DNA of 64,000 nucleotides from Halioglobus sp. (GCA_965227955.1 OZ245784.1:2206031-2270030), one strand, 5' to 3'; shown: positions 2,444 to 26,884, counted from the stretch's first letter. Program-made: numbers and translations. Notes: a model not told the origin generated them from the sequence alone.

Positions 2444-4111
2444 TCAGCCCAACATCGCGTAGCCCGACCCGATCGTCATCCCGGCACATGCAATCAACAG
2501 GCAGACTGTCAGCGATGCGTAGGCGACTATGCCGTAGCGTTCCCTGCGGCGCTGTTCGGGCTGCAGGTTGATCGTCACCGATCCCAGTACCGGCAGGCCG
2601 GTCACCGAAGCGAGGGAGCGGGAATCAAAAAACACCGGGTAGATGAGCGACACCAGGAAGCTGACACCGATGCCGGCGGCGAGGCCGGCGGCCAGCATAA
2701 TGGCATTGAGCAGCACCTTGTCCGGTTCACTCGGCTTCAGCGGCACGTAGGGCGGGTCGATGACGCGAAACGTGACGTCCGTCGCCTTCTGCTCCATATC
2801 CTGCCCCATGCGCGCCGTCTCCCGTCGCTTCAACAGCGTGCTGTGCTGGCTCCTGATGACATCGTAGTCCCGGTCGAGCTGTTTCAGCTGGCCCTCGATC
2901 TCGGGAATGGTGTTGACCTTCTCCTCCAGCTCCGACACGCGCTCGCGGTACTCCTTGACCCGCACCTCCAGCGCCGCGACCTTGGACTTCGACTCCGACA
3001 ACAGCTTCTTCAGATTGAGGTATATCGGGCTATTGGCAAGCCCGGAGAGGTCCCCGAGGTCCTCGAGGTCCTCGATTTCGAGGGGCTTGCCCGCCTCGCG
3101 TTTTTTACGCGCGGCGGCGAGCGCTTTTTTCGCAGCCGCATTGGCCTCCGCCTGTTCCGACGCCCGCTGCGCTTCCAGGTCTTCCAGCAGCGAGGTCAGC
3201 ATGCGCACTTCGGGGTGGCGATTGGTGTAGTGGATCCTCAGGGCGCCGAGCTCCGCCTGTGCCGCCTCGATCTGGGAATCCAGGGCGGGGTTGTTGTAGC
3301 GCGGGACTGGCGGGGCCCGCCGCGCCGGCGCCGGGTTCAACGGCGTGGCCGGCTCACTGCTCGGCGGCGGCAGGTACAGGGGATCTTCACCGTCGATCTG
3401 GCGCTGCAGGTCCACGACGCGGTTCTTCTCTTCCTTCAGCTGTAGCTGGGCCTGCTGCAACCGGGTCCTGGCACTGTTCAAGTTGCGATAGTAACCGCCC
3501 TTGCCGCCGAGGACGGACATATGCTTCTGGCGGAAGTTGGCGGAGCGCGTCTCCGCCGCGATCAGTCGCGCTTCGTATTCCTTGATCTGTTCGTCCAGGA
3601 AATCCTGGGCCCCGGAAGTGTCCTCCCGCTTGCCGCTGAGGGAGCTCTCGATGAACACCGTGATGAGCGCCTGGGCGATCCGCTTGGCGGTGTCACGGTC
3701 GGGATCCTGCACAGAAATGGCATAGAGGGACTTGTCCTGCCGCCCGGCATTCAGACGAATAGCCTTGGACAGGTCGGACAGCAGCTCGTCCTTTTCCCGC
3801 GCAGTGGTGACCTGCAGGTCCAGGTCGGTCATGCGCATCAGTTTTTCCAGGTTGGGGCGACTGAGCAGCGTGCGGCTCAGCAGACCGATGCGGCTCTCCA
3901 CGTTGGGCTGGACCGCCAGCCCCTGCAGCAGCGGCCGCAGCACGCTGTTGGTGTCCACGTATACCCGGGCGCTCGCGACATAGGACTCCGGCAGCTGCCA
4001 GACCCAGATCCAGCCGCCGATGGCGACCAGCCACGCGACGACGAGGGCCAGCCAGCGATGCCGCCAGACTCCCCATGCGTAGGAGAAGACCTGCCCCAGG
4101 ATATCCTGCAT
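2444..4111 (-). CDS. Polysaccharide chain-length determinant protein (Wzz/PCP family, PEP-CTERM locus subfamily)
   Basis: N-terminal TM (WLALVVAWLVAIGGWIWVW), a long coiled-coil-like periplasmic region and a C-terminal TM (LLNAIMLAAGLAAGIGVSFLVSLIY). It sits directly upstream of the BY-kinase. Confidence 0.85.
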   Translation of the reverse strand: MQDILGQVFSYAWGVWRHRWLALVVAWLVAIGGWIWVWQLPESYVASARVYVDTNSVLRPLLQGLAVQPNVESRIGLLSRTLLSRPNLEKLMRMTDLDLQVTTAREKDELLSDLSKAIRLNAGRQDKSLYAISVQDPDRDTAKRIAQALITVFIESSLSGKREDTSGAQDFLDEQIKEYEARLIAAETRSANFRQKHMSVLGGKGGYYRNLNSARTRLQQAQLQLKEEKNRVVDLQRQIDGEDPLYLPPPSSEPATPLNPAPARRAPPVPRYNNPALDSQIEAAQAELGALRIHYTNRHPEVRMLTSLLEDLEAQRASEQAEANAAAKKALAAARKKREAGKPLEIEDLEDLGDLSGLANSPIYLNLKKLLSESKSKVAALEVRVKEYRERVSELEEKVNTIPEIEGQLKQLDRDYDVIRSQHSTLLKRRETARMGQDMEQKATDVTFRVIDPPYVPLKPSEPDKVLLNAIMLAAGLAAGIGVSFLVSLIYPVFFDSRSLASVTGLPVLGSVTINLQPEQRRRERYGIVAYASLTVCLLIACAGMTIGSGYAMLG

Positions 4112-4146: not shown

Positions 4147-4806
4147 TCAGAACCAGGACTCCGCGATGATCAGCACGTCGCCGGGCATGAGTGCGAGATT
4201 GGCCGTGATATCGCCGTCCTTGATCAAGTCGTCGAGACGCAGGCTGTACACCTGCTGCCTGCCGTCGACCATGCGCACCAGCACCGAACCGTTACCGTCC
4301 GCGTACGGGGTGAGCCCGCCGACCGAGATCATCAGGTCCAGCAGCGTCATGTGCTTCTTGTAGGGGATGCGCCTGGGATTGGTCGCCTCGCCCAGGACGC
4401 GAATAGTCTGCTCCGGAACCCCCGAAAAACTGCTGACGATAACGCTGACCACCGGCTCGCGGACGTACTCGGAATAGGCGCTCTCGATATCGCGCGCGAG
4501 TTGCGTGGATGTCTTGCCGCTGGCTTGCAAGTCCTCGACCAGTCGCGTCGTCAGTTTGCCGTCGGGCCGAACGGTACCGCCCGAGCTCAGCTCCTCGTTG
4601 CCCCAGACGAATATCGTGACCGAGTCGCCGGGACCGAGAACGTAATCGTAGTCGACTTCGACATCGCGCTGGGCCTCGGGTACCGGCGGGTAGGAGGTGG
4701 AACCACACCCCGCGCTCAGCGCGAGGAGCAGACCAGCGAGAGCCGCGAATGGAGTTTTCAGTATCGAGAAGCAACCGGATTGCGCAGATTGAGCCATCAT
4801 TTCCAT
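4147..4806 (-). CDS. Polysaccharide export outer-membrane lipoprotein (Wza/EpsE-like)
   Basis: Lipobox LALSAGC. Poly_export-type motif YVLGPGDSVTIFVWGNEELS. C-terminal SLBB-like segment (GDITANLALMPGDVLII). Confidence 0.85.
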   Translation of the reverse strand: MEMMAQSAQSGCFSILKTPFAALAGLLLALSAGCGSTSYPPVPEAQRDVEVDYDYVLGPGDSVTIFVWGNEELSSGGTVRPDGKLTTRLVEDLQASGKTSTQLARDIESAYSEYVREPVVSVIVSSFSGVPEQTIRVLGEATNPRRIPYKKHMTLLDLMISVGGLTPYADGNGSVLVRMVDGRQQVYSLRLDDLIKDGDITANLALMPGDVLIIAESWF

Positions 4807-4990
4807 CTCCTTCGGACCGTCGCATGGCCATTATTATCCCGAAAGTCTATCACGCCGCCCATTGCGGGAATCCCATGGTGGCTGAACATTGTGAACAACG
4901 TCACAGAGATATTCGGGGCGCCTGCAGCCCTCGTATTTACTGCCCCGGGAGCGAAACGGCAATCCGTGCGAACCGGGACCGGGGACGCCA

Positions 4991-7246
<2,256 letters not shown>

Positions 7247-7428
7247 CCGGGTCCGCCACCCAAGGCAAAAAGGAAGGAAATCAGAGCTTTACAGAGATCA
7301 ATACCCAATGCAAGTGACCGGGTGCTTACCCCGGACACCTTTTTTGTCTAAACTGGGAACCACGCACCCAAAGGGCCGAAGCCAGCGGATTCGCGGCGTC
7401 CGGGTGCGGTACCTGGGATACACACGAT

Positions 7429-7632
7429 ATGAATAAGAACCTCGTATTTCTCGGCACCATCGGGGGGGTGATCGGGGCGATCACCTGCTTCCTGGCAGGA
7501 CTCGCCAGGGTCGCCGGCTACTACTACATGCTCGGATACCAGTCCACGACCGTGTTCAATGTCGGGGTGGGCCTCATGGTGTTCGCCTGCCTGGTCAAGG
7601 TCGAGGAAATCGCCGCGCGCGAGCGCCGGTAG
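7429..7632 (+). CDS. Small hypothetical membrane protein (two predicted TM helices)
   Basis: 67-aa ORF with GC3-rich codons and two hydrophobic stretches (VFLGTIGGVIGAITCFLAGL, VFNVGVGLMVFACLV). Weak ribosome-binding site. No family recognised. Confidence 0.35.
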   Translation: MNKNLVFLGTIGGVIGAITCFLAGLARVAGYYYMLGYQSTTVFNVGVGLMVFACLVKVEEIAARERR

Positions 7633-7780
7633 GCCGACCCGGGACAATCGCGTTGCGCGCAGGTGCCCGGCCCTTCGCGTCAAAATTCTTTACGTTTGAC
7701 CGGCCCTTCCCGGCCACCGCTCGGGAAGAGTCTCGCATTTTTTCCGTAAGATACTGTTTTATATCAGTTTTTCGATTTTT

Positions 7781-7796
7781 AGGTATACAAATTGCA
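7781..7796 (+). promoter_or_regulatory. Candidate sigma-54 (-24/-12) promoter AGGTATACAAATTGCA
   Basis: GG-N10-GC spacing with a perfect TTGCA -12 element. It lies in an AT-rich intergenic tract about 185 nt upstream of the TAT-protein start. The sigma-54 activator PrsR is encoded in the same locus. Confidence 0.55.
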
Positions 7797-7980
7797 TAAG
7801 GAAGGGTTGCACCGGCATCAAAATCGACTGTGACTCGTATCACAGACGCTGTTGATGCGGGTTTCAGCGGTAATATGGCGGTGGTAAAGTCCCGGACAAT
7901 GGCTAACCTGAATACAGGGGTCGGCGCATTGCTTGGCAGCGCCTCGGCGGCCGAATCGCCTGGATGGTACGGGGGTTAAC

Positions 7981-8379
7981 TTGGACAGTTACAAAGACAG
8001 AGACAGCGAAGGACGCGCTGGCCGCCCCGAGCCCGCCGCTACCGAAGAATTGCGCGACCCCACCCGTCGCCGCTTCTCCCGCAGCGCCCTCGCGGGCAGT
8101 GCGGTGCTGCTCTCTCTCGGCAATCGCGCCGCGTGGGGCGGGGGCACCCAGATCGCCGGCTGCATGTCGGTGATGACCGTCAACTCCTTCAACCCGGAAA
8201 CCGGCATGTTCATCTCCGCGCCCGCGGGAAGGCCGGACCACAACGAGGATCTCGCGGCGGAAATCCACCGCATCGGCGACCCGCCCGACTATCTCGGCGC
8301 AGACGGCAGGTGGAAAGTGTGCCCGGACCCCGACTCCTTCGACGGCGTATGCCTCGTCAAGGGCAGGTGCCCGGACTGA
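7981..8379 (+). CDS. Small secreted protein with twin-arginine signal and four Cys in the mature part
   Basis: TAT motif TRRRFSRSALAGSAVLLSLGNRAAWG. Mature region of about 85 aa with Cys in GC, VCPD, VCLV and RCPD contexts. GC3-rich frame. No in-frame ATG: possible starts are TTG 7981 (GGGGG 5-6 nt upstream) or TTG 7933, as in the ORF track. Confidence 0.55.
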   Translation: MDSYKDRDSEGRAGRPEPAATEELRDPTRRRFSRSALAGSAVLLSLGNRAAWGGGTQIAGCMSVMTVNSFNPETGMFISAPAGRPDHNEDLAAEIHRIGDPPDYLGADGRWKVCPDPDSFDGVCLVKGRCPD

Positions 8380-8460
8380 GTTGCATCCCCCGGGCGGCCG
8401 GTGGCCACACCGGGAACCATCTGAAATAATATCCACTACCCGACACCTGGCGCGCGCCCT

Positions 8461-8730
8461 ATGACGTGGCGAGTTGAATCCCCGGGGCAGGTTTACGACG
8501 CCGGAGAGGGCTCGGTCGTGTACTTCGACCCCCGCAGTGGCGACACTCACCTGCTCAGCGACTTCGCGGCCTACCTTCTCGAACAGCTGGGGGACGGCCC
8601 CCTGGACACCGGCGAACTGGTCGCGCGCGTGGCGCCCGACGTGGAGGGCGGTGACCCGGCGGAGGTCCAGGCCTCGGTGACCGCGGCGCTGGAAGACCTC
8701 GTGTCCCTCGACATTCTCAAGCGGGGCTAG
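8461..8730 (+). CDS. PqqD-family peptide chaperone / RiPP-recognition-element protein (HPr-rel-A system type)
   Basis: 89-aa protein with the PqqD-like pattern VVYFDPRSGDTHLLSDFAAYLLEQL...AALEDLVSLDILKR. It sits immediately upstream of the HprK-related kinase. Confidence 0.75.
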   Translation: MTWRVESPGQVYDAGEGSVVYFDPRSGDTHLLSDFAAYLLEQLGDGPLDTGELVARVAPDVEGGDPAEVQASVTAALEDLVSLDILKRG

Positions 8731-8739
8731 GCCACCCAG

Positions 8740-9645
8740 ATGCAACGCCTCGGACAACTCGGTGCGGACGAACTGGGCGACAGGCTGCGCCGGGGTGACC
8801 TCGCCCTGCGTATCGGCCCCTACGTCTACAACGTCCAGAGCAATCTCGCCGATATCGCCCGCGGCCTGCACACACTGTACGCCGATTTTCCCCTCGCCGG
8901 CCCCGGCGACTATGTCGATTTCGACGTGGGTCTGCGCCAGTCGGGGCTGCGCCAGCGCCTGACGGGTCGCGCCGACTTCCTCTTCGATCGCCAGCGACCC
9001 TTCGACACCGTGCCCGCGGGCCAGTCCTACGCCTTCCTGGAGTGGGGGATGAACTGGTGTGTCTCACTGCACGTGAACGAGTACCTCAAGCTGCACGCGG
9101 CGGTGGTGTCGCGGGGCGACAGCGGGGTCGTCATGCCCGGCGTGCCCGGGGCCGGCAAGAGCACGCTCTGCGCTGCACTGGGCCTGCGCGGCTGGCGCAT
9201 CCTGTCGGACGAACACGCCATGCTCGAGCCGGGCACCACCGACCTGGTCCCGCTGTGCCGCCCGGTCAGCCTCAAGAACGAGAGCATCGAGGTCATCCGG
9301 GCGTTCTCGCCCCGGGCGGTACTGGGCCCGGTCAGCCACCAGACGCACAAGGGTGTGGTGGCACACATGAAGGCGGACCTTACCGCCGACAGCCATGACC
9401 CGGGCACAGTACCCGCGCGCTATATGCTGTTCCCGAGGTACAGCGCGACGGAGACACAGCGCCTCGCACCGCGACGGCGCACGGAGAGCTTCATCATCGC
9501 GGCCTACCACTCTTTCAACTACAGCCTGCTGGGTGAGCCGGGTTTCCGGGCCATGCGCCTGTTGGTGGAAACTGTCGAGTGCTTCGACCTGGTGTACCGG
9601 GACCTGGACTGGGCGGTCGGGGTGATGGAGGAATTGCTCGCATGA
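8740..9645 (+). CDS. HprK-related kinase A (P-loop serine kinase-like)
   Basis: P-loop GVPGAGKSTL followed by RILSDEHAML. Its size and its pairing with the PqqD protein match what I recall of the HprK_rel_A family. Confidence 0.8.
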   Translation: MQRLGQLGADELGDRLRRGDLALRIGPYVYNVQSNLADIARGLHTLYADFPLAGPGDYVDFDVGLRQSGLRQRLTGRADFLFDRQRPFDTVPAGQSYAFLEWGMNWCVSLHVNEYLKLHAAVVSRGDSGVVMPGVPGAGKSTLCAALGLRGWRILSDEHAMLEPGTTDLVPLCRPVSLKNESIEVIRAFSPRAVLGPVSHQTHKGVVAHMKADLTADSHDPGTVPARYMLFPRYSATETQRLAPRRRTESFIIAAYHSFNYSLLGEPGFRAMRLLVETVECFDLVYRDLDWAVGVMEELLA

Positions 9646-10760
9646 GCCCCCCTCCTTCCTTCGTCCTGCGGGAGGCGCTGCTCAATCCCGGCGAGGTCCC
9701 GGCCCTGAATGCCGGACAACTGGGAGGTCTCGTTACCCAGGCGAGAATCGCACGCCTGCTCCCGACCCTGGCGCTCGAGCTCGAGGCGTCGGGGGCACTC
9801 GACGAACTGGCCTGGCCGGTGCGCCGCCACCTGCTCTCCGCGGTGCTGGTGCACGAGAAACAGAAACGCGATCTCGCCTTCGACTGCGAATCGATCGGCG
9901 CCGCGCTGGCCCAGGAGGGCGAGCGCCTGGTGCTGCTCAAGGGAGGCGCCTACCTGCGCGCCGACCTGCCCGTCGGACGCGGCCGGCTGATCACCGATAT
10001 CGACATCATTGTGCCCCGCCCGTCCATCGAGGCCGCCGAACGGGCGCTCAACGAGCACGGCTGGGAAAGCGCCGAGCTCGACCCCTACAACGAGAGCTAC
10101 TACCGCAGGTGGAGCCACGAGACACCCGCCCTGTTCAACCGCAGGCGCGGCACCACCCTGGACCTGCACCACAATATCCTGCCCCCCACCGCCGGCCCGA
10201 ATGTCGATGCGGCGCTGCTGTTCGGGGAACTGCGCGAGGTGGCTCCGGGGATCTTCATCCCCTCGCTGCGTGACATGGTCATACACAGCGCGACCCACCT
10301 ATTCCACGAGGGGGAATTCCACCACGGGCTCAGGGACCTCTGGGACCTGGATCGCATGCTGCGGGACTTCCCTGCCAGGGAGGAGGATTTCTGGGCGCGC
10401 CTGGTGGAGCGGGCGCGACAGCTCCAATTACAGGAGTCGCTGTTTCACGGCCTGGTCTACGCCCGGGCGCTTTTCGATACACCTGTGCCCGCAGCGCTGG
10501 CCGCGACTGCGGGCTCGAGGGCGCAGCGCCTGCGGCGCCCGCTCATGGACTTCCTGTTCCTCCGCGCGTTCCGACCCGACCACCCGGATTGCCGCCTGCC
10601 CCTGACCGGGGTCGCGCTGAATGCGCTGTACCTGCGATCCCACTACCTGCGCATGCCGCTCTACCTGCTGCTGCCGCACCTCGTGCGCAAGGCCTGGATG
10701 CGGCGCAAGGCTTCCAGGGAGCGCAAGGATGAAACAGGAATGGCGGGCGGCGGCGCTTAA
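9642..10760 (+). CDS. Uncharacterised nucleotidyltransferase family protein (NTP_transf_5-like)
   Basis: Motifs LLKGGAYLRADLP and GRLITDIDIIVP (acidic pair). The ATG at 9642 overlaps the kinase stop (ATGA). The N-terminal extension in the ORF track (from 9579) is probably not translated. Confidence 0.7.
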   Translation: MSPPPSFVLREALLNPGEVPALNAGQLGGLVTQARIARLLPTLALELEASGALDELAWPVRRHLLSAVLVHEKQKRDLAFDCESIGAALAQEGERLVLLKGGAYLRADLPVGRGRLITDIDIIVPRPSIEAAERALNEHGWESAELDPYNESYYRRWSHETPALFNRRRGTTLDLHHNILPPTAGPNVDAALLFGELREVAPGIFIPSLRDMVIHSATHLFHEGEFHHGLRDLWDLDRMLRDFPAREEDFWARLVERARQLQLQESLFHGLVYARALFDTPVPAALAATAGSRAQRLRRPLMDFLFLRAFRPDHPDCRLPLTGVALNALYLRSHYLRMPLYLLLPHLVRKAWMRRKASRERKDETGMAGGGA

Positions 10761-10772
10761 TACCCCGGCCCG

Positions 10773-12086
<1,314 letters not shown>

Positions 12087-12092
12087 TGGGCG

Positions 12093-13127
12093 TCATCCCC
12101 CTTCCAGCTTGTCGCGGAACCACTCCGCGGTGACCGCCAGGCCCTGGCGCACATCGTGGGTGGGTTCATATCCCAGCAACGCCTGCGCCCTGCCGATATC
12201 AGCCTGCGAGTGGCGCACATCGCCCTCGCGAAAATCGCCGTACTGTGCCTCGATGGAGGCGACCTCGGGGCGAGTCTCCGCGAGCAGCGCGCGAATTGCG
12301 GCGAACAGCTCGTTGAGGCTGGTGCGGCCACCGACCGCCACATTGTATACCTGGTTGCAGGCGCCCGAATCCTCTACCGCCGCCGCCAACAGGTTGGCCT
12401 GCACCGTGTTGTCGATAAAGCAGAAATCGCGGGAGGTCTCGCCGTCACCGTTTATCCGCGGGGACTCGCCGCGACAGAGCGCCTCGAACCAGCGTGGGAT
12501 GACCGCGGCGTAGGCGCCCGCCGGGTCCTGCCTGGGCCCGAAAACGTTGAAGTAGCGCAGACCGATGCACTCGGTGCCGTACGCGCGCGAGAACACGTCC
12601 GCGTACAGTTCGTTGACGTACTTGGTCACTGCGTAGGGAGACAGGGGCCTGCCGATCTCGTCCTCCACCTTGGGGAGGCCGGGGTGGTCGCCGTAGGTCG
12701 ACGACGACGCGGCGTAGACGAAGCGTCGCACACCGGCATCCCGGGAGGCGACGAGCATGTTCAGGAAACCGTCGACGTTGGCGCGGTTGGAGAGGATCGG
12801 GTCGTCCAGCGAACGCGGCACACTGCCCAGCGCCGCCTGGTGCAGGACATAGTCCGCGCCGTCGACGACTGCGCGGCAGCCGTCCAGCTCGCAGATATCG
12901 CCCTCGTGAAAGTCGAAACGCGCCCAATGCTCCGGCTCCAGCCCGGCGCGCACATCCTCCAGGTTGTGGCGGTAGCCGGTGGCGAAGTTGTCCAGTCCGA
13001 CCACGGACTGGCCGAGACGCAGCAGCCTGTCCACCAGGTGCGACCCGATGAAGCCGGCGGCACCCGTGACCACCCACCGGGAAGGCAGCTCGGCGAGCCG
13101 GGATTCCAGTGCCTGAAAGGCTGACAT
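12093..13127 (-). CDS. NAD-dependent nucleotide-sugar 4-epimerase (TviC/WbpP-like)
   Basis: Motifs [11 protein letters not shown] and SSSTYG, plus YxxxK (PYAVTKY). It sits 6 nt upstream of the dehydrogenase. Confidence 0.9.
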
Positions 13128-13286: not shown

Positions 13287-15434
13287 TTGGAAAGTTCGGG
13301 ACTGGAGATACAGGACAGTATCCTCGGCAATATCGGCTTGTACAGCTACGGTACTGCCCTGCTCGCCTATGCGCTCCTTGTAGGCCTCGCGCTCGTCACC
13401 CGCCGCAACAACCCCCTCGGTATATCCATAGTCGTCGCCAGCTTTTTGACCGCCGCCTGGGCGGGCACGGTCACCCTGTCCGGACTCCTCATCGAACCGC
13501 GGCCGGGCCTGATACAGGTCGCCGAGCTGGGGCGCAACGCCGGCTGGATTTTCGTGCTGCTCAAGTTTATCGAACTGCGCCTGGAGGGCGGCGGGCACCC
13601 CGCGGCGACGCTGCGCTGGCTGCCGCTGTTCGGCGCCGGCTGTGCTATCACTCTCGCACTCCTGCTCGTGGCGGGCCCCTTTGCGGGGGCGCTCGGGCTG
13701 AGCATGGAGACCTCCGCCAACATCGCGTTCAGCACCTGGCTCGCCCTCTCGGTCCTCGGCCTGCTGCTGCTTGAGCAGTGCTTTCGCAACAGCAACGAGG
13801 GCGAACTATGGAGCACCAAGCACCTCTGCCTGGCGCTCGGCATCCTGTTCGCCTACGACTTTTTCATGTACGCCGAGGCGCTGCTGTTCCGGCACCTCGA
13901 CCGCAACCTCTGGCAGGCGCGCGGCGTGGTGATCACCATGGCCGCCATCCTCATGGCGGTCAGTATCCGTCGCGCCGAGCGCAGTGAAGATATCGCCAAC
14001 AGCCGCAGTATTTATCTCTCCCGCCATGTCGCGTTCCACTCGCTGACCCTGCTCGCGTCCGGCATCTACCTGATCGCCATGGCGCTGGCGGCCTACTTCA
14101 TCCGCTACCTGGGCGGCAGCTGGGGCGGCGTACTGCAGATCGCCTTCCTCTGCGGGGCGGGTCTAACCCTGGTGGTCCTGCTGTTCTCGGGCCAGATTCG
14201 CGCCCGCGCCAGGGTGTGGCTGAGCAAGAATTTTTTCTCCTACAAGTACGACTACCGCACCGAGTGGCTGGAGTTCACGCAGACTCTGGCCGGCGGCGAC
14301 GCGGATGTACCACAGAACATCACGCGCGCCATCGCCAACCTGGCGAAGAGCCCCGCGGGCATACTCTGGGGCCGGACTGAGGGCAGCCATTTCACCACGC
14401 TGGCACATCTCGAAATGCCCCACCCCGGGACGGACGTCGACCTCGGCAGCCTGCCGCGCTGGCTGCAGGAACACGAGTGGATCATCGACCTCGAGGAGTG
14501 GCGCACCGCGCCCGACGTCTACAGCAATCTTGAGATACCGCGGTCGCTGACGGAGGTCTCCCGCGCCTGGCTCATCATCCCGCTGCTCTTCGGCGAACGC
14601 CTGCAGGGAATCCTGTTGTTGCGCGAATCGGAACTGTTGCAGGAACTCAACTGGGAGGACCGCGACCTGCTGAAAGTCGCCGGCCGCCAGGCCGCCAGTC
14701 ACCTGGCGCAGTACCAGGCCGACCAAGCCCTGGTGGAGTCGCGCCAGTTCGAGGCGTTCAACCGCCTGTCCGCCTATGTGATCCACGATCTCAAGAACAT
14801 TCTCGCGCAACTCTCCCTGATGGTGTCGAACGCCGAGAAACACAAGCACAACCCGGACTTTGTCGAAGACATGGTGGGCACCGTGAGCAACGCGGTAAAC
14901 CGCATGAGCAAGCTCATGGCGCAGCTGCGCAGTGACATCGGGGAGGAAGCGCGACAGGATTTCGAGCTGGCCGCACTGCTCGGCGAGGTGGTCGCCGAAG
15001 CGGCGCTCCGAGATCCGCCGCCACAGTACGCACCCCCGCCGGTCCAGCTACGGGTGAACTGTGACCGCGATCGGCTGCACGCCGTCTTCGGTCACCTCAT
15101 ACACAACGCCCAGGACGCCACCGGCAAGCACGGTGTGGTTGCAGTCAGGCTGCGGCAAATGGGCGACAGTGCCGTGGTGGACATCGAGGACGACGGCGAG
15201 GGCATGGACGAGGAGTTCATCCAGCACCGCCTGTTCAAGCCCTTCGATTCCACCAAAGGGCTCACGGGCATGGGCATTGGCGCCTTCGAGAGCCGCGATT
15301 TCGTGCGCAGCGTGAACGGCGACATCAGCGTGCAGAGCACCCCCGGCCGGGGCTCGCTGTTCAGCGTTCGCCTGCCGGCCACGCCCGGCCCCGCCGCCGA
15401 GAGCAGAACACTGGTTGAGGATGCACAGACGTGA
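13287..15434 (+). CDS. prsK: XrtA/PEP-CTERM system sensor histidine kinase PrsK
   Basis: Multi-TM N-terminal half and a GAF-like middle region. H-box HDLKNILAQLSLM. ATPase boxes DDGEGMD and GMGIGAF. Overlaps prsR. TTG start, so the start is uncertain. Confidence 0.85.
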   Translation: MESSGLEIQDSILGNIGLYSYGTALLAYALLVGLALVTRRNNPLGISIVVASFLTAAWAGTVTLSGLLIEPRPGLIQVAELGRNAGWIFVLLKFIELRLEGGGHPAATLRWLPLFGAGCAITLALLLVAGPFAGALGLSMETSANIAFSTWLALSVLGLLLLEQCFRNSNEGELWSTKHLCLALGILFAYDFFMYAEALLFRHLDRNLWQARGVVITMAAILMAVSIRRAERSEDIANSRSIYLSRHVAFHSLTLLASGIYLIAMALAAYFIRYLGGSWGGVLQIAFLCGAGLTLVVLLFSGQIRARARVWLSKNFFSYKYDYRTEWLEFTQTLAGGDADVPQNITRAIANLAKSPAGILWGRTEGSHFTTLAHLEMPHPGTDVDLGSLPRWLQEHEWIIDLEEWRTAPDVYSNLEIPRSLTEVSRAWLIIPLLFGERLQGILLLRESELLQELNWEDRDLLKVAGRQAASHLAQYQADQALVESRQFEAFNRLSAYVIHDLKNILAQLSLMVSNAEKHKHNPDFVEDMVGTVSNAVNRMSKLMAQLRSDIGEEARQDFELAALLGEVVAEAALRDPPPQYAPPPVQLRVNCDRDRLHAVFGHLIHNAQDATGKHGVVAVRLRQMGDSAVVDIEDDGEGMDEEFIQHRLFKPFDSTKGLTGMGIGAFESRDFVRSVNGDISVQSTPGRGSLFSVRLPATPGPAAESRTLVEDAQT

Positions 15435-16786
15435 AGAACGATAAAAAACACCTGCTCGTCGTCGAGGACGACAAGGGGCTGCAGAGCCAGCTGCGCTGGG
15501 CCTTCGAAAACTTCGAGGTGGAGATCGGCGGCGACCGCACGGAGGCGATCAACCAGTTCCGCCGTATCCACCCGGGGGTCGTTCTGCTGGACCTCGGGCT
15601 GCCACCCGATCCGGGGGGCGTCACCGAGGGCCTGGCCACCCTCAGCGAGATCCTGGCGCTGGCACCTGAAACCAAGGTCATCATCGTCACCGGCGACAAC
15701 GATCGCGCCAACGCGGTGAAAGCCATCGCGATGGGCGCCTACGACTTTCACCAGAAACCGGCGGATCCCGAGATCCTGTCGCTTCTCGTCAACCGCGCAC
15801 AGCATGTCTACGAGCTGGAACGGGAGAATCGCCGCTTGCAGCAGGGCGACGAGAACATGCCCCTGCGCGGCATCATCACCGCCAGCCCGCAGATGCTCAA
15901 GGTCTGCCGAACAATCGAGAAAATCGCCCCGTCGGATATCACCACCCTGCTGTTGGGCGCGAGCGGCACCGGCAAGGAGCGCTGCGCACAGGCCCTGCAC
16001 GACCTGAGCCCGCGGGCCGAGGGTCCGCTGATCGCCATCAACTGCGCCGCGATCCCGGAGAATCTCCTGGAGAGTGAACTCTTCGGGTACGAGAAAGGCG
16101 CTTTCACCGGCGCGGCGAAGCAGACTCCCGGCAAGATCGAGTACGCCGACGGGGGCACGTTGTTCCTCGACGAGATTGGCGACCTGCCCATGGAATTGCA
16201 GGCCAAGCTGCTGCGCTTCCTGCAGGAGCGGGTGGTGGAGCGCATCGGGGGCCGCAAGGAAATCCCGGTCGATGTGCGCATACTGTGCGCGACACACCAG
16301 GACCTGCAGGCGCTCATCGAGAAGGGTCTCTTCCGCGAGGACCTCTACTACCGGATCAGCGAGATCGTTATCGAGATACCGCCGCTTCGCGAACGCGAGG
16401 GCGACGTCCTGGTCCTGGCGAAGTCTTTTCTCAACAGCCTGGGGAACGAATACAACAGCTCGGTCAAGGATTTTTCCGCCGAGGCCATCGCCGCCATGGA
16501 GGCCCATGACTGGCCCGGAAACGTGCGCGAACTCGAAAGCAAGGTGAAACGCGGGGTCATCATGGCGGACGGCAGCCAGATCGGCCCCGAGGACATGGAG
16601 CTCGCCGAGACCTCCGAGGAGCCGATGCCGCTGAACCTCAAGGAGGTCCGCGAGAACGCCGAGCGGCGCGCGGTGATCAGGGCGATGAACCATTGCAACC
16701 AGAACATCACCGAGGCCGCCAACGTGTTGGGCATCACCCGGCCCACCCTTTACAACCTGCTCGAGAGGCTCGGCCTCAAAAGCTGA
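15431..16786 (+). CDS. prsR: PEP-CTERM-box sigma-54-dependent response regulator PrsR
   Basis: Receiver domain (LLVVEDD, VVLLDLGLPPD). AAA+ domain with Walker A GASGTGKE and the GAFTGA sigma-54 contact loop. C-terminal Fis-type HTH (ITEAANVLGITRPTLYNLL). GTGA overlap with prsK. Confidence 0.9.
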   Translation: MKNDKKHLLVVEDDKGLQSQLRWAFENFEVEIGGDRTEAINQFRRIHPGVVLLDLGLPPDPGGVTEGLATLSEILALAPETKVIIVTGDNDRANAVKAIAMGAYDFHQKPADPEILSLLVNRAQHVYELERENRRLQQGDENMPLRGIITASPQMLKVCRTIEKIAPSDITTLLLGASGTGKERCAQALHDLSPRAEGPLIAINCAAIPENLLESELFGYEKGAFTGAAKQTPGKIEYADGGTLFLDEIGDLPMELQAKLLRFLQERVVERIGGRKEIPVDVRILCATHQDLQALIEKGLFREDLYYRISEIVIEIPPLREREGDVLVLAKSFLNSLGNEYNSSVKDFSAEAIAAMEAHDWPGNVRELESKVKRGVIMADGSQIGPEDMELAETSEEPMPLNLKEVRENAERRAVIRAMNHCNQNITEAANVLGITRPTLYNLLERLGLKS

Positions 16787-16791: not shown

Positions 16792-19563
16792 TTACTGCAG
16801 GCTCTTCAGCAACGCTTCCGCCTTCTTGCGCCCGGCAAACTCCGCGTCGCTGGCCAGCACCGCCGACAGCGAAGCCACCGCCCCCTCGCGCTGGCCCCGC
16901 GCCGCGAGTATGCGCGCCTCGTGGTAGCGCAGGTCCGGATTGTCGGGGTCGATGCCCAGTGCCCGCTCCAGCGTTCGCTGCGCCGCCATGGTGAGGCCGT
17001 TTTCAAGCTGCGCCATGGCCAGTGTATCCAGGACTGCGACGGAGTCCGGTGACAGCGCCTGCGCCCGCTCGGCATAGGCAAGTGCCTGCGCGGGGTCCTG
17101 TCCCAGCAGGTGCCAGGCGAGGTTGTTGAGCGCCACCACATTGTCGCTGTCTATCTGCACGATTTTCATGTACTCGGCCACGACCTTGTCGCGCTGGCGG
17201 CTCTCCCGGTAGAGTTCCGCGAGCGCCTCGCGCGCCTTGATGTCCTGGTCGTGCTCCTTCAGCCATTTCTCCAGCTGTCGAATGGCCTGGCCGGTCTTGC
17301 CAATCTGGTGCCAGTGATTGGCCAGGCCGATCGCGTTGGCCGTCGTGGGCGATTGCTGAAAGAGTATGCCCAGCAGATAGCCCGCGTAGCGATTGTCGCC
17401 CTTCATGCGCGCCGCAGTGGCTTCGAGCTGGATCACGTCCGGATTTTCCGGCGCCACTTCCTTGAGTTCCGCCATGCGCTTCGCGAACAGGTCACCGCGG
17501 CCCCTGAGCAGTGCCAGCCTGGCCATCGCTATGCGCGCGTAGAAATGATCGGGGTCCAGTTCAACGGCGCGCTCCAGCTCCGGCAACAGGTGTTCCGTGT
17601 CGCCGAGGCCGGCGTAGGCCTTCGCGCGCAGGTAGTGGTACTGGCTGATGCCGGGTCGAAGCTGGACCAGGCGCTCCAGCGTGCGCAGGGCCTGGTGGTA
17701 GCGACTGCCGGCGAGCTGGAAACTGGCGAGCGTGGCGAGCACGTCCGGCTGGTCCCTCTGCAGGCGGGAGAGACTGTCGAGAACCGGCTCGGCCTCTTCC
17801 AGCTGCCCCTTGGCTATGTAGTAGCGCGCCAGCACCAGGCGCGGCTCGGTGGCCTCCGGATGGGTATCGATGGCCAGTGCGAGGCGTTCCAGCATCTCTG
17901 TCTCCCGACCCTCCAGGGCGTAGGCCGCCGCGAAATCGAGCTGGGTCGACAGGCGCTCTGGATGATACTTGAGCACGTGGCGATACTGCTTGCGCGCGGC
18001 ACTGTACTGCCCGCGCTGCAGGGCGATCTCCGCCAGCCCGTGCCGCGACGCCGGATCGGCGGGATTGATCTCCAGCGACTTGTTGAAGGCATCGCGGGCC
18101 TCGTCGAGATTTCCGTTGGCCAGGTGCGCGCGCCCGAGCAGGTTGTAGGAGGCCGAGCTTCCGGGGTTGCGGTCGCGATAGCGCAGCGCCGCCTCCAGCG
18201 CCTCCTCCGGCTGGTCGTTGCTGAGAAAGTTGACCACCAGCAGTATGTCCGCCTGCTCGAACTTCGGGTTGGTGACGATGGCGTCCTCGAGTGCGGCGAC
18301 CGCGGAGTCGACCTCCCCGGCCGCGATATAGCCGGCGCCCAGCCGCGCCTTCGCACCGGCACTTTCCGGTTGCAGCTCGACAATCTTGAGCAGCAGCTCG
18401 ACGCCCTCCCCGCCCCGCCCCTGGGCGAGAATGGCGCTGGCCATGAGGTTCAGCGCCTCGATATCGTTGGGGTAGACCTCGAGTACGGGCTGCAGCAGGG
18501 TCTCCGCCGAGTGATATCCCCCCAGTTCCAGCTCCAGGCGCGCGGCGAGCTTGGGCCCGACAATACTCTCCGGGGCCAGGGCCAGGAAGCGGTACACCTC
18601 CGTCAGCGCCCGTTCGAGGGTGCCCTCTTGCAGGTCGATGACGGCCATGTAGTAGTAGGCCAGCGGGTAGGCGTAGGTGAAGTCCACGGTTTTCTCGAAG
18701 GCCTTGCGCGCCGGCGTGTGATTCCCCGACTGCATCAGCGCAATGCCCTCCGCGAAACTCACGCCGGGGTGGGTCTTGGCGGCGCGCCCGTGAATCCTGT
18801 TCAGGGCCTTCAGGTCTTCCCGCGCACCCTTGAAGTCCTGTTGGTAGATCCGCATCATCGCGCGGTTCAGGCGCGCGTCGAAGGCGTTGTTGTTGAGTTT
18901 CAGCACCTGGCTATAGGCCTGTTCCGCCTTCTTCGTCTTGCGCTGTGCCGCGTCGATATCGCCGACCAGGTTCCACGCCGGCGCGTAGTTGCGGTTTTCC
19001 GCGATGATCTCCTGCAGCTGCTTGCGCGCGAGATCGAAATCCTCCCTGGCCATGGACAGGCGTGCCGCCGCGACCCGGGCGTAGAGGGAAATCTCTCCCG
19101 TCGCGACGGCGGTCTGCAGCAGGTCCTCCGCGACCACCACGTCGCCCTGGTAGAGAATGGCCAGCCCCTTCGCGGCCAGGGTGGTGGAACGCGCCTCGTC
19201 GTCCAGCCCGTCGACCTCGAGGTCGTCGAGCCGGTCGAAGTCACCGATGTGCAGGAGTGTCTGTGCCAGGATGGGCACCACCAGGGAGCGATCGACCGCG
19301 GCGCCCGCCTCCAGCGCCCTGCTCAACTCCTTGTCGGCCCCGTCGTAGTCGCCCAGCTTGTAGTAGGCCTTGCCGAGCAGCGCGCGCGCCTCGACCTGAT
19401 GGACGTCCTTGTTCAGGGCCATCTTGAACTCGACCACGGCCGCCCGGAACTGCTCCCCCTCCAGGAGCGCCTTGCCGTCGGCCAGGTGTTCCTCGCTGGT
19501 GACGCTGTCGCCGCAGGCTGCCAGGAGGCAGGAGAGCACAAGGAGGCGGATGAAACGACTCAT
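16792..19563 (-). CDS. prsT: PEP-CTERM system TPR-repeat lipoprotein PrsT
   Basis: Lipobox LLAAC. About 900 aa made almost entirely of TPR repeats. It is convergent with prsR, with a 5-nt gap. Confidence 0.85.
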   Translation of the reverse strand: MSRFIRLLVLSCLLAACGDSVTSEEHLADGKALLEGEQFRAAVVEFKMALNKDVHQVEARALLGKAYYKLGDYDGADKELSRALEAGAAVDRSLVVPILAQTLLHIGDFDRLDDLEVDGLDDEARSTTLAAKGLAILYQGDVVVAEDLLQTAVATGEISLYARVAAARLSMAREDFDLARKQLQEIIAENRNYAPAWNLVGDIDAAQRKTKKAEQAYSQVLKLNNNAFDARLNRAMMRIYQQDFKGAREDLKALNRIHGRAAKTHPGVSFAEGIALMQSGNHTPARKAFEKTVDFTYAYPLAYYYMAVIDLQEGTLERALTEVYRFLALAPESIVGPKLAARLELELGGYHSAETLLQPVLEVYPNDIEALNLMASAILAQGRGGEGVELLLKIVELQPESAGAKARLGAGYIAAGEVDSAVAALEDAIVTNPKFEQADILLVVNFLSNDQPEEALEAALRYRDRNPGSSASYNLLGRAHLANGNLDEARDAFNKSLEINPADPASRHGLAEIALQRGQYSAARKQYRHVLKYHPERLSTQLDFAAAYALEGRETEMLERLALAIDTHPEATEPRLVLARYYIAKGQLEEAEPVLDSLSRLQRDQPDVLATLASFQLAGSRYHQALRTLERLVQLRPGISQYHYLRAKAYAGLGDTEHLLPELERAVELDPDHFYARIAMARLALLRGRGDLFAKRMAELKEVAPENPDVIQLEATAARMKGDNRYAGYLLGILFQQSPTTANAIGLANHWHQIGKTGQAIRQLEKWLKEHDQDIKAREALAELYRESRQRDKVVAEYMKIVQIDSDNVVALNNLAWHLLGQDPAQALAYAERAQALSPDSVAVLDTLAMAQLENGLTMAAQRTLERALGIDPDNPDLRYHEARILAARGQREGAVASLSAVLASDAEFAGRKKAEALLKSLQ

Positions 19564-26619: not shown

Positions 26620-26710
26620 GGCTAGTCTCCCTAACTTGCCGTTACCGTTGAAAACCTTGCGACCTGCGCCCTGTCCTGGGCCGGCCGAAAATTTCGTTCG
26701 GAAGATAAAA

Positions 26711-26726
26711 AGCAAGGCATGTACCA
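26711..26726 (-). promoter_or_regulatory. Candidate sigma-54 promoter TGGTACATGCCTTGCT
   Basis: Near-consensus -24/-12 element on the minus strand, in an AT-rich tract about 92 nt upstream of the PEP-CTERM protein start. Confidence 0.7.
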
Positions 26727-26884
26727 ATGTCATATTATTTCTTTATTTTCAGTAAGTTACAAACTTCGCCAATGTTTCAGCGCCCCGCCAAACCGCGTTT
26801 TGTAAAAAATCCTGACGGGGCCGGGCGAGGATCACGCCATTACCACTGGTTATGGCGGGGTGATCGCGACGGCCGCCCGGGGCA

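What the first reader, a model, noticed from the sequence alone, without database searches (positions are those of the whole stretch)
7781..10760. Sigma-54-driven PqqD / HprK-related kinase / nucleotidyltransferase operon: a RiPP-like tailoring system without a core cyclase
Seen: a tightly packed co-directional set downstream of a -24/-12 promoter match.
- A TAT-signal Cys-containing protein (7981-8379).
- An 89-aa PqqD-like protein.
- A P-loop kinase (GVPGAGKSTL) of the HPr-kinase lineage.
- An NTP_transf_5-like nucleotidyltransferase whose ATG overlaps the kinase stop.
- No lasso cyclase, leader protease, radical-SAM enzyme or YcaO gene is nearby.

Known: PqqD-like domains act as peptide-binding recognition elements in RiPP pathways. 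HPr-kinase homologues phosphorylate lasso-peptide precursors in paeninodin-type clusters, which also carry a nucleotidyltransferase. The HprK-related kinase A / PqqD pairing has, as far as I know, been named only by comparative genomics (the HPr-rel-A system), with no substrate, product or phenotype assigned.

Inference: this is a peptide or protein phosphorylation and/or nucleotidylylation module wired into the PEP-CTERM/EPS regulon. This locus also offers concrete substrate candidates, described in the next two findings.
Basis: partly seen in the sequence, partly recalled or inferred. Interest (0 to 1): 0.85.

Follow-up and report, generated by a model that had tools for sequence, protein, structure and literature searches.

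The report
Four-gene secreted-protein tailoring operon
This is a real operon, controlled like the biofilm (PEP-CTERM) genes, in which a peptide-docking protein, a serine-kinase-like enzyme and a nucleotidyltransferase always sit beside one small unnamed secreted protein, which makes that protein the obvious, testable candidate for what these uncharacterised enzymes modify.

Summary
The genes at 8461-8730, 8740-9645 and 9642-10760 match TIGR04353 (PqqD, HPr-rel-A system), TIGR04352 (HprK-related kinase A) and PF14907, all above the curated cut-offs. The window is a Halieaceae XrtA/PEP-CTERM exopolysaccharide locus.

- **Fourth gene.** The twin-arginine ORF (7981-8379) is a constant fourth gene. 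A homologue lies next to the trio in 78 of 79 related loci whose flank can be read, from Halieaceae to Betaproteobacteria. It belongs to a family with no Pfam or NCBIfam model, no PDB fold match, and only "hypothetical protein" names.
- **Promoter.** The -24/-12 promoter (7781-7796) is conserved across these lineages. It is preceded by the 17-nt "PEP-CTERM box" (7678-7694) that Haft (2006) assigned to PrsR. So the operon belongs to the PrsK/PrsR/sigma-54 regulon.
- **No core RiPP enzyme.** No lasso cyclase, protease, radical-SAM or YcaO gene is in the window.

Best reading: the PqqD protein docks the N-terminal region of the fourth protein. The kinase phosphorylates conserved serines after an invariant Cys. 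The PF14907 enzyme elaborates the phosphate, as PsmK/PsmN do on pseudomycoidin. Tat export follows. The biochemistry is inferred, not shown.

It is a member of a system known only by name, in a variant form not described before.

The parts
7678..7694 (+). PEP-CTERM box, motif 1: the putative PrsR enhancer site, CGTCAAAATTCTTTACG, of TGT-N11-ACA type.
   Evidence: This is one of only two exact matches to GTCA-N6-TTTACR in the 64-kb window. The other lies upstream of the EDSAP-1 PEP-CTERM gene. The motif is conserved at -92 or -79 from the -24 element in related loci, in 59 of 74 loci against a background of 0.005. It fits Haft 2006: a 17-nt motif ending in TTTACA, 32-92 nt upstream of the sigma-54 motif.
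7781..7796 (+). Sigma-54 -24/-12 promoter, AGGTATACAAATTGCA.
   Evidence: GG-N10-GC with a perfect TTGCA. A comparable site is conserved upstream of the fourth gene in 78% of 74 loci, against 14% of random windows and 7% of shuffles.
7829..7844 (+). Conserved palindrome TGTGA-N6-TCACA in the 5' UTR. It matches the CRP/Vfr-type consensus. Its function is unknown.
   Evidence: It is present at the same relative position in 28 of 74 loci, all Halieaceae. The arms are invariant and the centre is variable. A second copy lies at 4890-4905.
7981..8379 (+). Fourth cassette gene: a 132-aa protein with a twin-arginine N-terminus (T-R-R-R-F-S-R, residues 28-34). It has an invariant Cys61-Met-Ser63 ... 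Thr66 ... Ser69 segment and a small domain with three further Cys. It is the candidate substrate.
   Evidence: A homologue lies next to the trio in 78 of 79 loci whose flank can be read. All five substrate-side look-ups returned the same cassette. There is no Pfam, NCBIfam or PADLOC hit. AF2 predicts residues 52-132 as folded, with no PDB fold match.
8461..8730 (+). PqqD-family peptide-binding protein (an RRE), HPr-rel-A type.
   Evidence: TIGR04353 at 53.9 bits (cut-off 35) and PF05402. It lies directly upstream of the kinase in 81 of 82 loci; the exception is a truncated contig.
8740..9645 (+). HprK-related kinase A, a P-loop Ser-kinase-like enzyme.
   Evidence: TIGR04352 at 330.1 bits (cut-off 200). 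H119, G137-x-G139-K140-S141-T142 and S156-D157-E158 are conserved in >=97% of 84 sequences.
9642..10760 (+). PF14907 (NTP_transf_5) nucleotidyltransferase-fold enzyme.
   Evidence: PF14907 at 166 bits. It lies directly downstream of the kinase in 81 of 81 loci. L-K-G-x-A-Y ... G-R ... D119-x-D121 is about 95% conserved.
13287..16786 (+). PrsK (13287-15434) and PrsR (15431-16786): the histidine kinase and sigma-54 enhancer-binding response regulator presumed to drive the operon.
   Evidence: TIGR02916 at 748 bits and TIGR02915 at 701 bits. Haft 2006 links PrsR to motif 1.

Best explanation
The unit is a four-gene operon (7981-10760), not a trio. It is transcribed from a PrsR-activated sigma-54 promoter together with the PEP-CTERM matrix-protein genes.

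**Proposed mechanism**
1. The first gene encodes a small protein with a twin-arginine N-terminus.
2. While this protein is still in the cytoplasm, the PqqD-type domain binds its conserved N-terminal region. That region is the RR motif, the h-region and the "LGNRAAWG" segment.
3. PqqD presents the protein to the HprK-like P-loop kinase. The kinase phosphorylates one or more conserved serines just after the invariant Cys. In the window protein these are Ser63 and/or Ser69.
4. The PF14907 enzyme then extends the phosphoserine through a phosphodiester, adding a hexose or a nucleotide. The only characterised kinase/nucleotidyltransferase pair of this kind, PsmK/PsmN, does this on the lasso peptide pseudomycoidin.
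5. The finished, folded protein is exported by Tat and acts in the periplasm or matrix alongside the exopolysaccharide.

**Shown here:** family membership, intact catalytic motifs, invariant four-gene linkage, and the conserved enhancer plus sigma-54 promoter.

**Inferred:** that the fourth protein is the substrate, which residues are modified, the chemistry of the second step, and Tat export.
For: - **Family membership** is above the curated cut-offs.
- **Catalytic residues are conserved** across 84 homologues:
  - Kinase: H119, K140, D157, E158. Lasso-peptide kinases share a His-Lys-Asp-Asp motif.
  - Nucleotidyltransferase: D119-x-D121. The PsmN D134A/D136A mutant is inactive.
- **Gene order is fixed.** The nucleotidyltransferase follows the kinase in 81 of 81 loci, and PqqD precedes it in 81 of 82.
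- **The fourth gene is linked to the trio.**
  - It is adjacent on the same strand in 78 of 79 loci whose flank can be read.
  - This holds in loci with no PEP-CTERM gene within 10 kb, so it tracks the trio rather than the EPS locus.
  - In 4 loci it has moved to just after the nucleotidyltransferase and still stays with the cassette.
  - From the substrate side, 5 of 5 look-ups return the cassette.
- **The shared part of the fourth protein is its N-terminus.** Between the short (about 130 aa) and long (about 230 aa) forms, only the RR region and a C-x(1-2)-S ... S segment are conserved. The C-terminal domains differ. This is the leader-plus-modification-site pattern.
- **The segment looks accessible in the long form.** There it is a low-confidence loop (pLDDT 53-67) ahead of a domain with pLDDT above 90.
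- **The enzymes look cytoplasmic.** I saw no signal peptide in either on reading the sequences.
- **Experimental precedent.** PsmK (poly)phosphorylates a precursor serine, and PsmN is required for hexose addition on that phosphate. Both are in clusters that also encode a PqqD-like B1 protein.
- **Regulation.** The PEP-CTERM box plus sigma-54 promoter is conserved, and PrsK/PrsR/PrsT lie in the window.
Against: - No experiment bears on this cassette. Full-text searches for its names found nothing.
- Lasso kinases act on a C-terminal serine. The window protein ends in ...GRCPD, and the family has no conserved C-terminal serine. A different site would have to be used.
- In the short form, the CMS...NSF segment is predicted to lie inside the fold, with pLDDT about 90. 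That is less obviously accessible to a kinase.
- The Pfam and NCBIfam searches returned no match to the N-terminus, even at E<=10.
- RRE domains are known to bind short precursor peptides, not 130-250 aa proteins.
- Adjacency alone cannot distinguish a substrate from a co-functioning partner.
- I could not test whether PsmN belongs to PF14907.
Confidence: 0.5

Rival explanations
1. The trio modifies something else, and the fourth protein is only a co-regulated secreted partner. Candidate targets are PEP-CTERM matrix proteins, which are often Ser/Thr-rich, or an unannotated small peptide. The fourth protein could then be, for example, a receptor, scaffold or periplasmic enzyme for the modified product.
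For: - The operon shares its enhancer and promoter with PEP-CTERM genes.
- PEP-CTERM genes flank the cassette in Sulfuricella and a Nitrosomonadales MAG.
- The fourth protein has a well-folded orphan domain.
- It lacks the C-terminal serine that lasso kinases use.
Against: - The fourth gene tracks the trio even where no PEP-CTERM gene lies within 10 kb.
- What is conserved across its forms is the N-terminal region and the Cys/Ser segment, not the folded domain.
- PEP-CTERM proteins are diverse and dispersed, with no fixed partner here.
- No conserved additional small ORF was seen between the cassette genes. The gaps are 81, 9 and -4 nt.
Confidence: 0.2
2. The kinase and nucleotidyltransferase build or activate a small molecule, such as a phosphorylated and nucleotide-activated sugar or a cofactor. 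That molecule is loaded onto the Tat protein before export, or fed into exopolysaccharide synthesis. PqqD acts as a signal-peptide-binding holding chaperone, in the manner of TorD, DmsD or NapD.
For: - A kinase plus a nucleotidyltransferase is the classic route to NDP-activated sugars (general knowledge).
- The cassette sits in an EPS locus, next to a TviB/TviC-like UDP-GalNAcA pair, in Halieaceae and in two other lineages.
- Tat substrates typically acquire cofactors in the cytoplasm (general knowledge).
- The fourth protein has invariant cysteines.
Against: - HprK-lineage P-loop kinases with known substrates are protein or peptide kinases.
- PF14907 is not the sugar-1-phosphate nucleotidyltransferase family.
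- TviB/TviC adjacency is absent from most betaproteobacterial loci.
- A PqqD-type RRE points to a peptide substrate for the enzymes themselves.
Confidence: 0.13
3. Phosphorylation is a leaving-group step. Phosphoserine is eliminated to dehydroalanine, and the invariant neighbouring Cys adds to it. This gives a lanthionine-like thioether, as in class III/IV lanthipeptide synthesis.
For: - An invariant Cys lies 2-3 and 7-8 residues before conserved serines in both the short and long forms.
- Kinase-then-elimination chemistry is established for class III/IV lanthipeptides (abstract of PMC10604976, listed).
Against: - No lyase or cyclase homologue is in the cassette or the window.
- This reading gives no role to the universally linked PF14907 enzyme.
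- The cysteines could simply form periplasmic disulfides.
Confidence: 0.07
4. It is a remnant or split lasso/RiPP pathway whose cyclase and protease are encoded elsewhere in the genome.
For: The same three enzyme families co-occur in lasso clusters of Firmicutes and some Proteobacteria.
Against: - No cyclase or protease appears in the 64-kb window. Gene tables for six related loci list none either.
- The four-gene unit is self-contained and conserved across classes.
- The partner gene encodes a 130-250 aa protein with no lasso-like core.
Confidence: 0.03

Closest known systems
HPr-rel-A system (NCBIfam/TIGRFAMs TIGR04352 HprK-related kinase A plus TIGR04353 PqqD family peptide chaperone)
   Same: Both equivalog models are matched above their cut-offs. 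The genes are adjacent, with a PF14907 gene overlapping the kinase stop. This window is a plain member.
   Different: The named system is defined only by comparative genomics. I found no substrate, product, phenotype or literature for it. The constant fourth gene and the PrsR/sigma-54 enhancer shown here are not covered by any Pfam or NCBIfam model.
Lasso-peptide phospho(glyco)sylation module: PadeK/ThcoK/PsmK kinase, PsmN nucleotidyltransferase and the PqqD-like B1 protein (paeninodin, pseudomycoidin)
   Same: - It has an HPr-kinase-lineage kinase, an "uncharacterised nucleotidyltransferase" and a PqqD-type leader-binding protein.
- The kinase acts on the linear precursor before maturation.
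- The nucleotidyltransferase is needed for hexose addition on the phosphate.
- The acidic catalytic pairs are conserved.
   Different: - There is no cyclase, B2 protease or ABC exporter here.
- The partner is a 132-aa (elsewhere about 230-aa) protein with a twin-arginine N-terminus, not a peptide of about 40 aa with a C-terminal Ser.
- Control is by PrsR/sigma-54 in an EPS locus of Gram-negative bacteria.
PEP-CTERM box regulon (PrsK/PrsR/PrsT; Haft et al. 2006, PMC1569441)
   Same: A 17-nt motif ending TTTAC(A/G) lies about 85 nt upstream of a GG/GC sigma-54 element. The same arrangement precedes the window's EDSAP-1 PEP-CTERM gene. PrsK, PrsR and PrsT are all in the window.
   Different: The first gene downstream is not a PEP-CTERM protein (no NCBIfam match at all), and the unit is a four-gene operon rather than a single gene. 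[quoted passage not shown]
HPr kinase/phosphorylase (HprK/P) of the PTS
   Same: The P-loop region is similar: residues 118-176 match an HPr kinase/phosphorylase-related model at E=0.005. Ser phosphorylation of a protein is the ancestral activity.
   Different: The similarity is confined to the P-loop region. The N-terminal 115 residues are unrelated. There is no HPr or PTS context, and no PDB relative is detectable by sequence.
Tat proofreading chaperones (TorD, DmsD, NapD), from my own knowledge
   Same: A small cytoplasmic protein is encoded next to a twin-arginine protein. It is proposed to hold the signal peptide until a cytoplasmic maturation step is complete.
   Different: The fold family differs: this is a PqqD/RRE protein. 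The maturation step would be a covalent modification rather than cofactor insertion. This is an analogy only, and I did not test it.
SynChlorMet cassette protein ScmC and HprK-related kinase B
   Same: These are other HprK-lineage proteins found in RiPP-like cassettes. They show weak P-loop-region matches. Precomputed annotation tags the kinase family as PF27840 "ScmC".
   Different: Scores are far below their cut-offs (27 and 19 bits against 200 and 125). The partner genes are different.

Membership tests
HPr-rel-A system | Kinase matches the TIGR04352 equivalog above its trusted cut-off. | tested here: met
   330.1 bits against a cut-off of 200. Residues 21-299 align to model positions 1-280 of 280.
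HPr-rel-A system | The adjacent small protein matches the TIGR04353 PqqD_rel_X equivalog above its cut-off. | tested here: met
   53.9 bits against a cut-off of 35, plus PF05402 at 28.8 bits against 23.4.
HPr-rel-A system | A PF14907 nucleotidyltransferase lies in the same cassette. | tested here: met
   166 bits against a cut-off of 31.2. The start overlaps the kinase stop. It lies downstream of the kinase in 81 of 81 related loci.
HPr-rel-A system | Catalytic motifs are intact: the P-loop and acidic pair in the kinase, and G-x ... D-x-D in the nucleotidyltransferase. | tested here: met
   Kinase H119, K140, D157 and E158 are >=97% conserved. Nucleotidyltransferase D119 and D121 are about 95% conserved.
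Lasso-peptide K/N/B1 tailoring module | An asparagine-synthetase-like lasso cyclase and a B2 protease are in the cluster. | tested here: not met
   None was found among the window genes scanned with Pfam and NCBIfam. None appears in the gene tables of six related loci.
Lasso-peptide K/N/B1 tailoring module | A short precursor peptide with a conserved C-terminal Ser as the kinase target. | tested here: not met
   The partner is 132 aa and ends in ...GRCPD. No C-terminal Ser is conserved in the family.
Lasso-peptide K/N/B1 tailoring module | The nucleotidyltransferase belongs to the same family as PsmN. | not testable with these tools
The paper calls it a member of "a family of uncharacterized nucleotidyltransferases" with a catalytic D-x-D.
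PEP-CTERM box (PrsR/sigma-54) regulon | A 17-nt motif 1 ending in TTTACA lies 32-92 nt upstream of a -24 GG / -12 GC motif. | tested here: met
   CGTCAAAATTCTTTACG at 7678-7694, then an 86-nt spacer, then 7781-7796. The arrangement is conserved in 59 of 74 loci.
PEP-CTERM box (PrsR/sigma-54) regulon | PrsK, PrsR and PrsT are present. | tested here: met
   TIGR02916, TIGR02915 and TIGR02917 (the last in two copies) are all above their cut-offs in the window.
PEP-CTERM box (PrsR/sigma-54) regulon | The regulated gene encodes a PEP-CTERM protein. | tested here: not met
   No NCBIfam or Pfam PEP-CTERM hit for 7981-8379. [quoted passage not shown]
Tat (twin-arginine) substrate | An S/T-R-R-x-F-L-K motif, then a mildly hydrophobic h-region, then a c-region with a basic residue and small residues at -3 and -1. 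| tested here: inconclusive
   - By inspection: T-R-R-R-F-S-R, then SALAGSAVLLSLG, then N-R-A-A-W-G.
- RR is conserved in about 95% and F in 94% of 75 homologues.
- The Pfam and NCBIfam searches returned no match to the N-terminus, even at E<=10.
- No dedicated Tat predictor was available.
RRE-dependent RiPP | A short precursor with a leader bound by the RRE and a core that becomes the product. | tested here: inconclusive
   An RRE is present. The conserved N-terminal region and the variable remainder resemble a leader and core. The partner, however, has a folded domain of 80-150 aa. Binding was not tested.

The most novel reading that the evidence does not exclude
A family of Tat-exported biofilm-matrix proteins carries a phosphodiester-linked sugar or nucleotide on serine. 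The modification is installed in the cytoplasm by an RRE-guided HprK-like kinase and a PF14907 transferase. The PqqD domain doubles as a Tat-signal proofreading chaperone. This would be the first RRE-dependent modification of a folded secreted protein. It would also be a new post-translational modification in the PEP-CTERM/exosortase matrix pathway of Gram-negative bacteria.
Probability: 0.3. Interest if true: 0.85.

Novelty: new variant of a known kind. Interest (0 to 1): 0.62.

Why it matters
- **The system is common but functionally blank.** Relatives of the kinase were found in at least 462 of about 185,000 species genomes and in 2,612 protein clusters, by searches that examine only pre-filtered candidates.
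- **There is now a concrete substrate candidate.** It is a protein of modest size that is always encoded next to the enzymes. There is also a defined inducing circuit, PrsK/PrsR/sigma-54. Together these turn an annotation label into a simple co-expression and intact-mass experiment.
- **It bears on an open question.** It is not known what the PF14907 enzyme PsmN actually does in lasso clusters.
- **If the model holds, it has three consequences.** It extends RiPP recognition elements from peptides to proteins. It gives a reason for using Tat in this pathway, namely export of a pre-modified protein. It adds a new component to the poorly understood PEP-CTERM/exosortase flocculation and biofilm system, which matters in activated sludge and marine aggregates.

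Tried and rejected
- **Window-only statistics for the sigma-54 site.** With 3 mismatches allowed there were 220 matches against 255 expected, which is uninformative. I replaced this with cross-locus conservation.
- **Profile searches on the fourth protein.** Pfam, NCBIfam and PADLOC searches of both the short and long forms found nothing.
- **PDB sequence searches.** The kinase profile and the nucleotidyltransferase gave no meaningful hits.
- **Foldseek against the PDB.** Both AF2 models of the fourth protein had best E above 3 and TM at or below 0.24.
- **Rfam on 7250-8500.** Only a sub-threshold mir-2 hit on both strands, which reflects the palindrome.
- **Intrinsic terminator between the first gene and PqqD.** None was found.
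- **The 67-aa ORF (7429-7632) as a cassette member.** Rejected: it is Halieaceae-only and lies upstream of the enhancer.
- **Lipoprotein reading of the invariant Cys.** Rejected: the preceding residues fit a lipobox only in a few sequences.
- **Defence or toxin-antitoxin reading.** Rejected: no PADLOC hits, and the context is EPS.
- **Literature searches.** Searches for HPr-rel-A, TIGR04352, TIGR04353, PF14907, and PEP-CTERM combined with PqqD or HprK found nothing relevant. Zhu et al. 2016 (PMC4919450) is not held.

Full report
**1. What is there**

The window has 65.8% G+C. It is an XrtA/PEP-CTERM exopolysaccharide locus.

| Coordinates | Strand | Assignment |
|---|---|---|
| 1304-2386 | - | XrtA-associated tyrosine autokinase |
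| 2444-4111 | - | chain-length determinant |
| 4147-4806 | - | export protein |
| 4991-7246 | - | PEP-CTERM-system ATPase fused to OmpA |
| 10773-13127 | - | TviB/TviC-like pair |
| 13287-15434 | + | PrsK |
| 15431-16786 | + | PrsR |
| 16792-19563 and 26885-29713 | - | two PrsT paralogues |
| 25627-26619 | - | EDSAP-1 PEP-CTERM protein |
| 33767-34513 | - | exosortase-associated acyltransferase |
| 36397-38919 | + | exosortase-A-associated acyl-CoA ligase |
| 40701-42113 | + | TIGR03013 priming glycosyltransferase |

The closest kinase homologues, at 62-74% identity, are from Halioglobus and Haliea. The source organism is therefore an unnamed member of the Halieaceae.

**2.

- The 89-aa ORF is TIGR04353 (53.9 bits, cut-off 35).
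- The 301-aa ORF is TIGR04352 (330 bits, cut-off 200).
- The 372-aa ORF is PF14907 (166 bits).
- The genes are packed: gaps of 81 nt and 9 nt, then an ATGA overlap.
- No lasso cyclase, B2-type protease, radical-SAM or YcaO gene appears among the window genes scanned.
- PADLOC finds nothing.

**3. The cassette has four genes, not three**

I fetched 80 loci from one-genome-per-species contigs using a kinase alignment. In that scan, 462 candidate stretches encoded a relative.

- **Gene order.** tblastn and iterated HMM searches on stop-to-stop ORFs show the nucleotidyltransferase directly after the kinase in 81 of 81 loci. PqqD lies directly before it in 81 of 82; the exception is a contig that starts inside the kinase.
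- **Fourth gene.** A homologue of the 7981-8379 ORF was detected in 75 of 82 sources.
  - Three of the seven misses are contig-edge truncations.
  - Three others (L065, L071, L076) have a diverged homologue in the expected place, recognisable by eye.
  - One (L080) has no upstream copy, and its downstream flank is cut.
  - That gives 78 of 79 loci whose flank can be read.
- **Position.** The gene sits on the same strand, directly upstream of PqqD. In four betaproteobacterial loci it sits directly after the nucleotidyltransferase instead.
- **Linkage to the trio.** It stays with the trio in loci that have no PEP-CTERM gene within 10 kb (L047, L050-L052, L056, L058-L061, L063 and others).
- **Reverse check.** Starting from five diverse members of the fourth-gene family, every look-up returned the same four-gene unit.
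- **Why it may have been overlooked.** It usually starts with GTG or TTG. It was not called at all in the Haliea record.

**4. The fourth protein**

- **Two forms.**
  - The short form, about 130 aa, is found in Halieaceae and has 119 database clusters.
  - The long form, about 210-260 aa, is found in Cellvibrionales and Betaproteobacteria and has at least 804 clusters.
- **No annotation.** Every named member is "hypothetical" or "uncharacterised protein", and none carries a Pfam domain. Pfam and NCBIfam searches of both forms are empty.
- **Shared elements:**
  - a variable acidic n-region;
  - S/T-R-R-R/K-F-x-K/R, with RR about 95% and F 94% conserved;
  - a Gly/Ala/Ser-rich hydrophobic stretch ending in LGNRAAWG or LASRPVLG;
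  - 4-25 residues later, an invariant Cys followed by conserved serines. Examples are G-C-M-S-V-x-T-L-N-S-F in the short form and N-C-T-V-S-G-x-x-S-G-N-x-S in the long form.
- **Structure predictions.**
  - Long form (P0241): residues 78-230 have pLDDT above 90, and the Cys/Ser segment has 53-67.
  - Short form (window ORF): residues 52-132 are mostly 84-95.
  - Neither model matches anything in the PDB.
- **Tat assignment.** The N-terminus reads as a Tat signal by inspection, including the basic "Sec-avoidance" residue in the c-region. The Pfam and NCBIfam searches returned no match to it, even at low stringency. I therefore treat Tat export as inferred.

**5. Regulation**

A comparable site, however, occupies the same position upstream of the fourth gene in 78% of 74 loci. 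The control rates are 14% for random windows and 7% for shuffles. Near-consensus copies occur in Betaproteobacteria, for example TGGCACGAATTTTGCA in Sulfuricella.

Anchoring the loci on that site reveals a second conserved element, yGTCAG-N5-TTTACA. It lies 92 nt (Halieaceae) or about 79 nt (others) upstream. This is Haft's motif 1: 17 nt ending in TTTACA, 32-92 nt upstream of the sigma-54 motif, the proposed PrsR site.

- It is present in 59 of 74 loci, against a background of 0.005 per equivalent stretch.
- In the window, the exact pattern occurs only twice: here at 7679-7694, and upstream of the EDSAP-1 PEP-CTERM gene at 26801-26816. The latter has its own TGGTACATGCCTTGCT promoter.
- The operon is therefore part of the PrsK/PrsR/sigma-54 regulon. 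This holds across lineages and is independent of physical linkage to the EPS locus.
- RpoN dependence of a PEP-CTERM gene has been shown experimentally in Aquincola.

**6. Mechanism**

Both enzymes keep their catalytic residues.

- Kinase: H119, the P-loop K140, and D157-E158 are conserved in at least 97% of 84 sequences. Lasso kinases share a His-Lys-Asp-Asp motif.
- Nucleotidyltransferase: L-K-G-x-A-Y ... D119-x-D121 is about 95% conserved. The PsmN D134A/D136A mutant is inactive.

The only experimentally studied combination of an HprK-lineage kinase, an "uncharacterised nucleotidyltransferase" and a PqqD-like protein is in lasso clusters.

- PadeK, ThcoK and PsmK (poly)phosphorylate a serine of the linear precursor.
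- PsmN is required for adding one or two hexoses to that phosphate.

By analogy, I propose that the PqqD protein docks the conserved N-terminal region of the fourth protein. The kinase then phosphorylates Ser63 and/or Ser69, and the PF14907 enzyme elaborates the phosphate. Tat exports the finished protein. Tat would fit a protein that is folded and decorated in the cytoplasm, where ATP and NTPs are available.

This model is weaker in four respects:
- Lasso kinases need a C-terminal serine, which this family lacks.
- The short-form target segment is predicted to be structured.
- RREs are not known to act on proteins of this size.
- Adjacency does not prove an enzyme-substrate relationship.

I put the model at about 0.5.

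Rival explanations, with my confidence in each:
- another substrate, with the fourth protein as a partner (0.2);
- small-molecule or cofactor activation and loading (0.13);
- phosphorylation-elimination giving a thioether with the invariant Cys (0.07);
- a split lasso pathway (0.03).

**7. Comparison and novelty**

As a sequence family, this is a plain member of the HPr-rel-A system, which is known only by comparative genomics. Full-text searches found no paper on it. It fails two defining features of lasso tailoring modules: there is no cyclase or protease, and no short precursor ending in Ser. So it works like that module without being one.

Two things appear to be undescribed:
- the invariant fourth gene, an orphan twin-arginine protein family;
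- the conserved PEP-CTERM-box/sigma-54 control.

I rate it a new variant of a known kind, with interest 0.62. A specialist would not be astonished. The finding does make a long-blank system, and the function of PF14907 enzymes, directly testable.

Noticed in passing
window 7829-7844 and 4890-4905: A perfect TGTGA-N6-TCACA palindrome (CRP/Vfr-type consensus) lies in the 5' UTR of the operon. It starts 33 nt after the end of the sigma-54 site. It is conserved at that position in 28 of 74 loci, all Halieaceae, with invariant arms and a variable centre. Most of those loci have a second copy. In the window the second copy lies between the export gene and the ATPase gene. It may be a second regulatory input on the EPS locus.
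   Followed up: partly
window 7880-7890: A conserved GGTGGTAAAGT element lies in the 5' UTR, about 90 nt before the start codon, in many Halieaceae loci. Its function is unknown.
   Followed up: no
window 7429-7632 (+): A 67-aa ORF that reads as a two-transmembrane protein lies between the ATPase gene and the operon's enhancer. It is conserved in 35 loci, all of them Halieaceae plus one Porticoccus MAG. It has no family hit and lies outside the sigma-54 transcription unit.
   Followed up: partly
window 31753-34513 (-) and 19707-20243 (-): A ThiF-adenylyltransferase/nitroreductase fusion (PRK08223 / Rv1355c-like) sits next to the exosortase-associated acyltransferase TIGR03694. A second FeeM/GNAT-like N-acyl amino acid synthase homologue (19707-20243) is preceded by a sigma-54-like site, TGGTACGCAACTTGCG, at 20318-20303. 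This may be an acyl-amino-acid or signal-lipid module of the same regulon.
   Followed up: no
window 42123-42138, 42211-42226, 42275-42547 (+): A third PEP-CTERM-box-like site (GTCAGAAAATTATACA, one mismatch) lies 72 nt upstream of a sigma-54-like site (CGGCGCGGAATTTGCA). Both precede a 90-aa ORF with a hydrophobic N-terminal stretch.
   Followed up: no
window 25627-26733 (-): The mechanical ORF for the EDSAP-1 PEP-CTERM protein is too long. The sigma-54 promoter (26726-26711) lies inside it, and the real start is the ATG at 26619, which follows a GGAG ribosome-binding site.
   Followed up: yes
window 4991-7246 (-): Here the PEP-CTERM-system ATPase (TIGR03015) is fused to a long Pro-Glu repeat linker and a C-terminal OmpA peptidoglycan-binding domain. 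In the Haliea locus L001 these are two separate genes.
   Followed up: no
window 10773-13127 (-); L085 9152-11505; L086 10480-12681: A TviB/TviC-like pair (UDP-GlcNAc 6-dehydrogenase and UDP-GlcNAcA 4-epimerase, which make UDP-GalNAcA) lies immediately next to the cassette. This holds in Halieaceae and in two unrelated metagenomic lineages, but not in most betaproteobacterial loci. It could hint at the sugar donor.
   Followed up: partly
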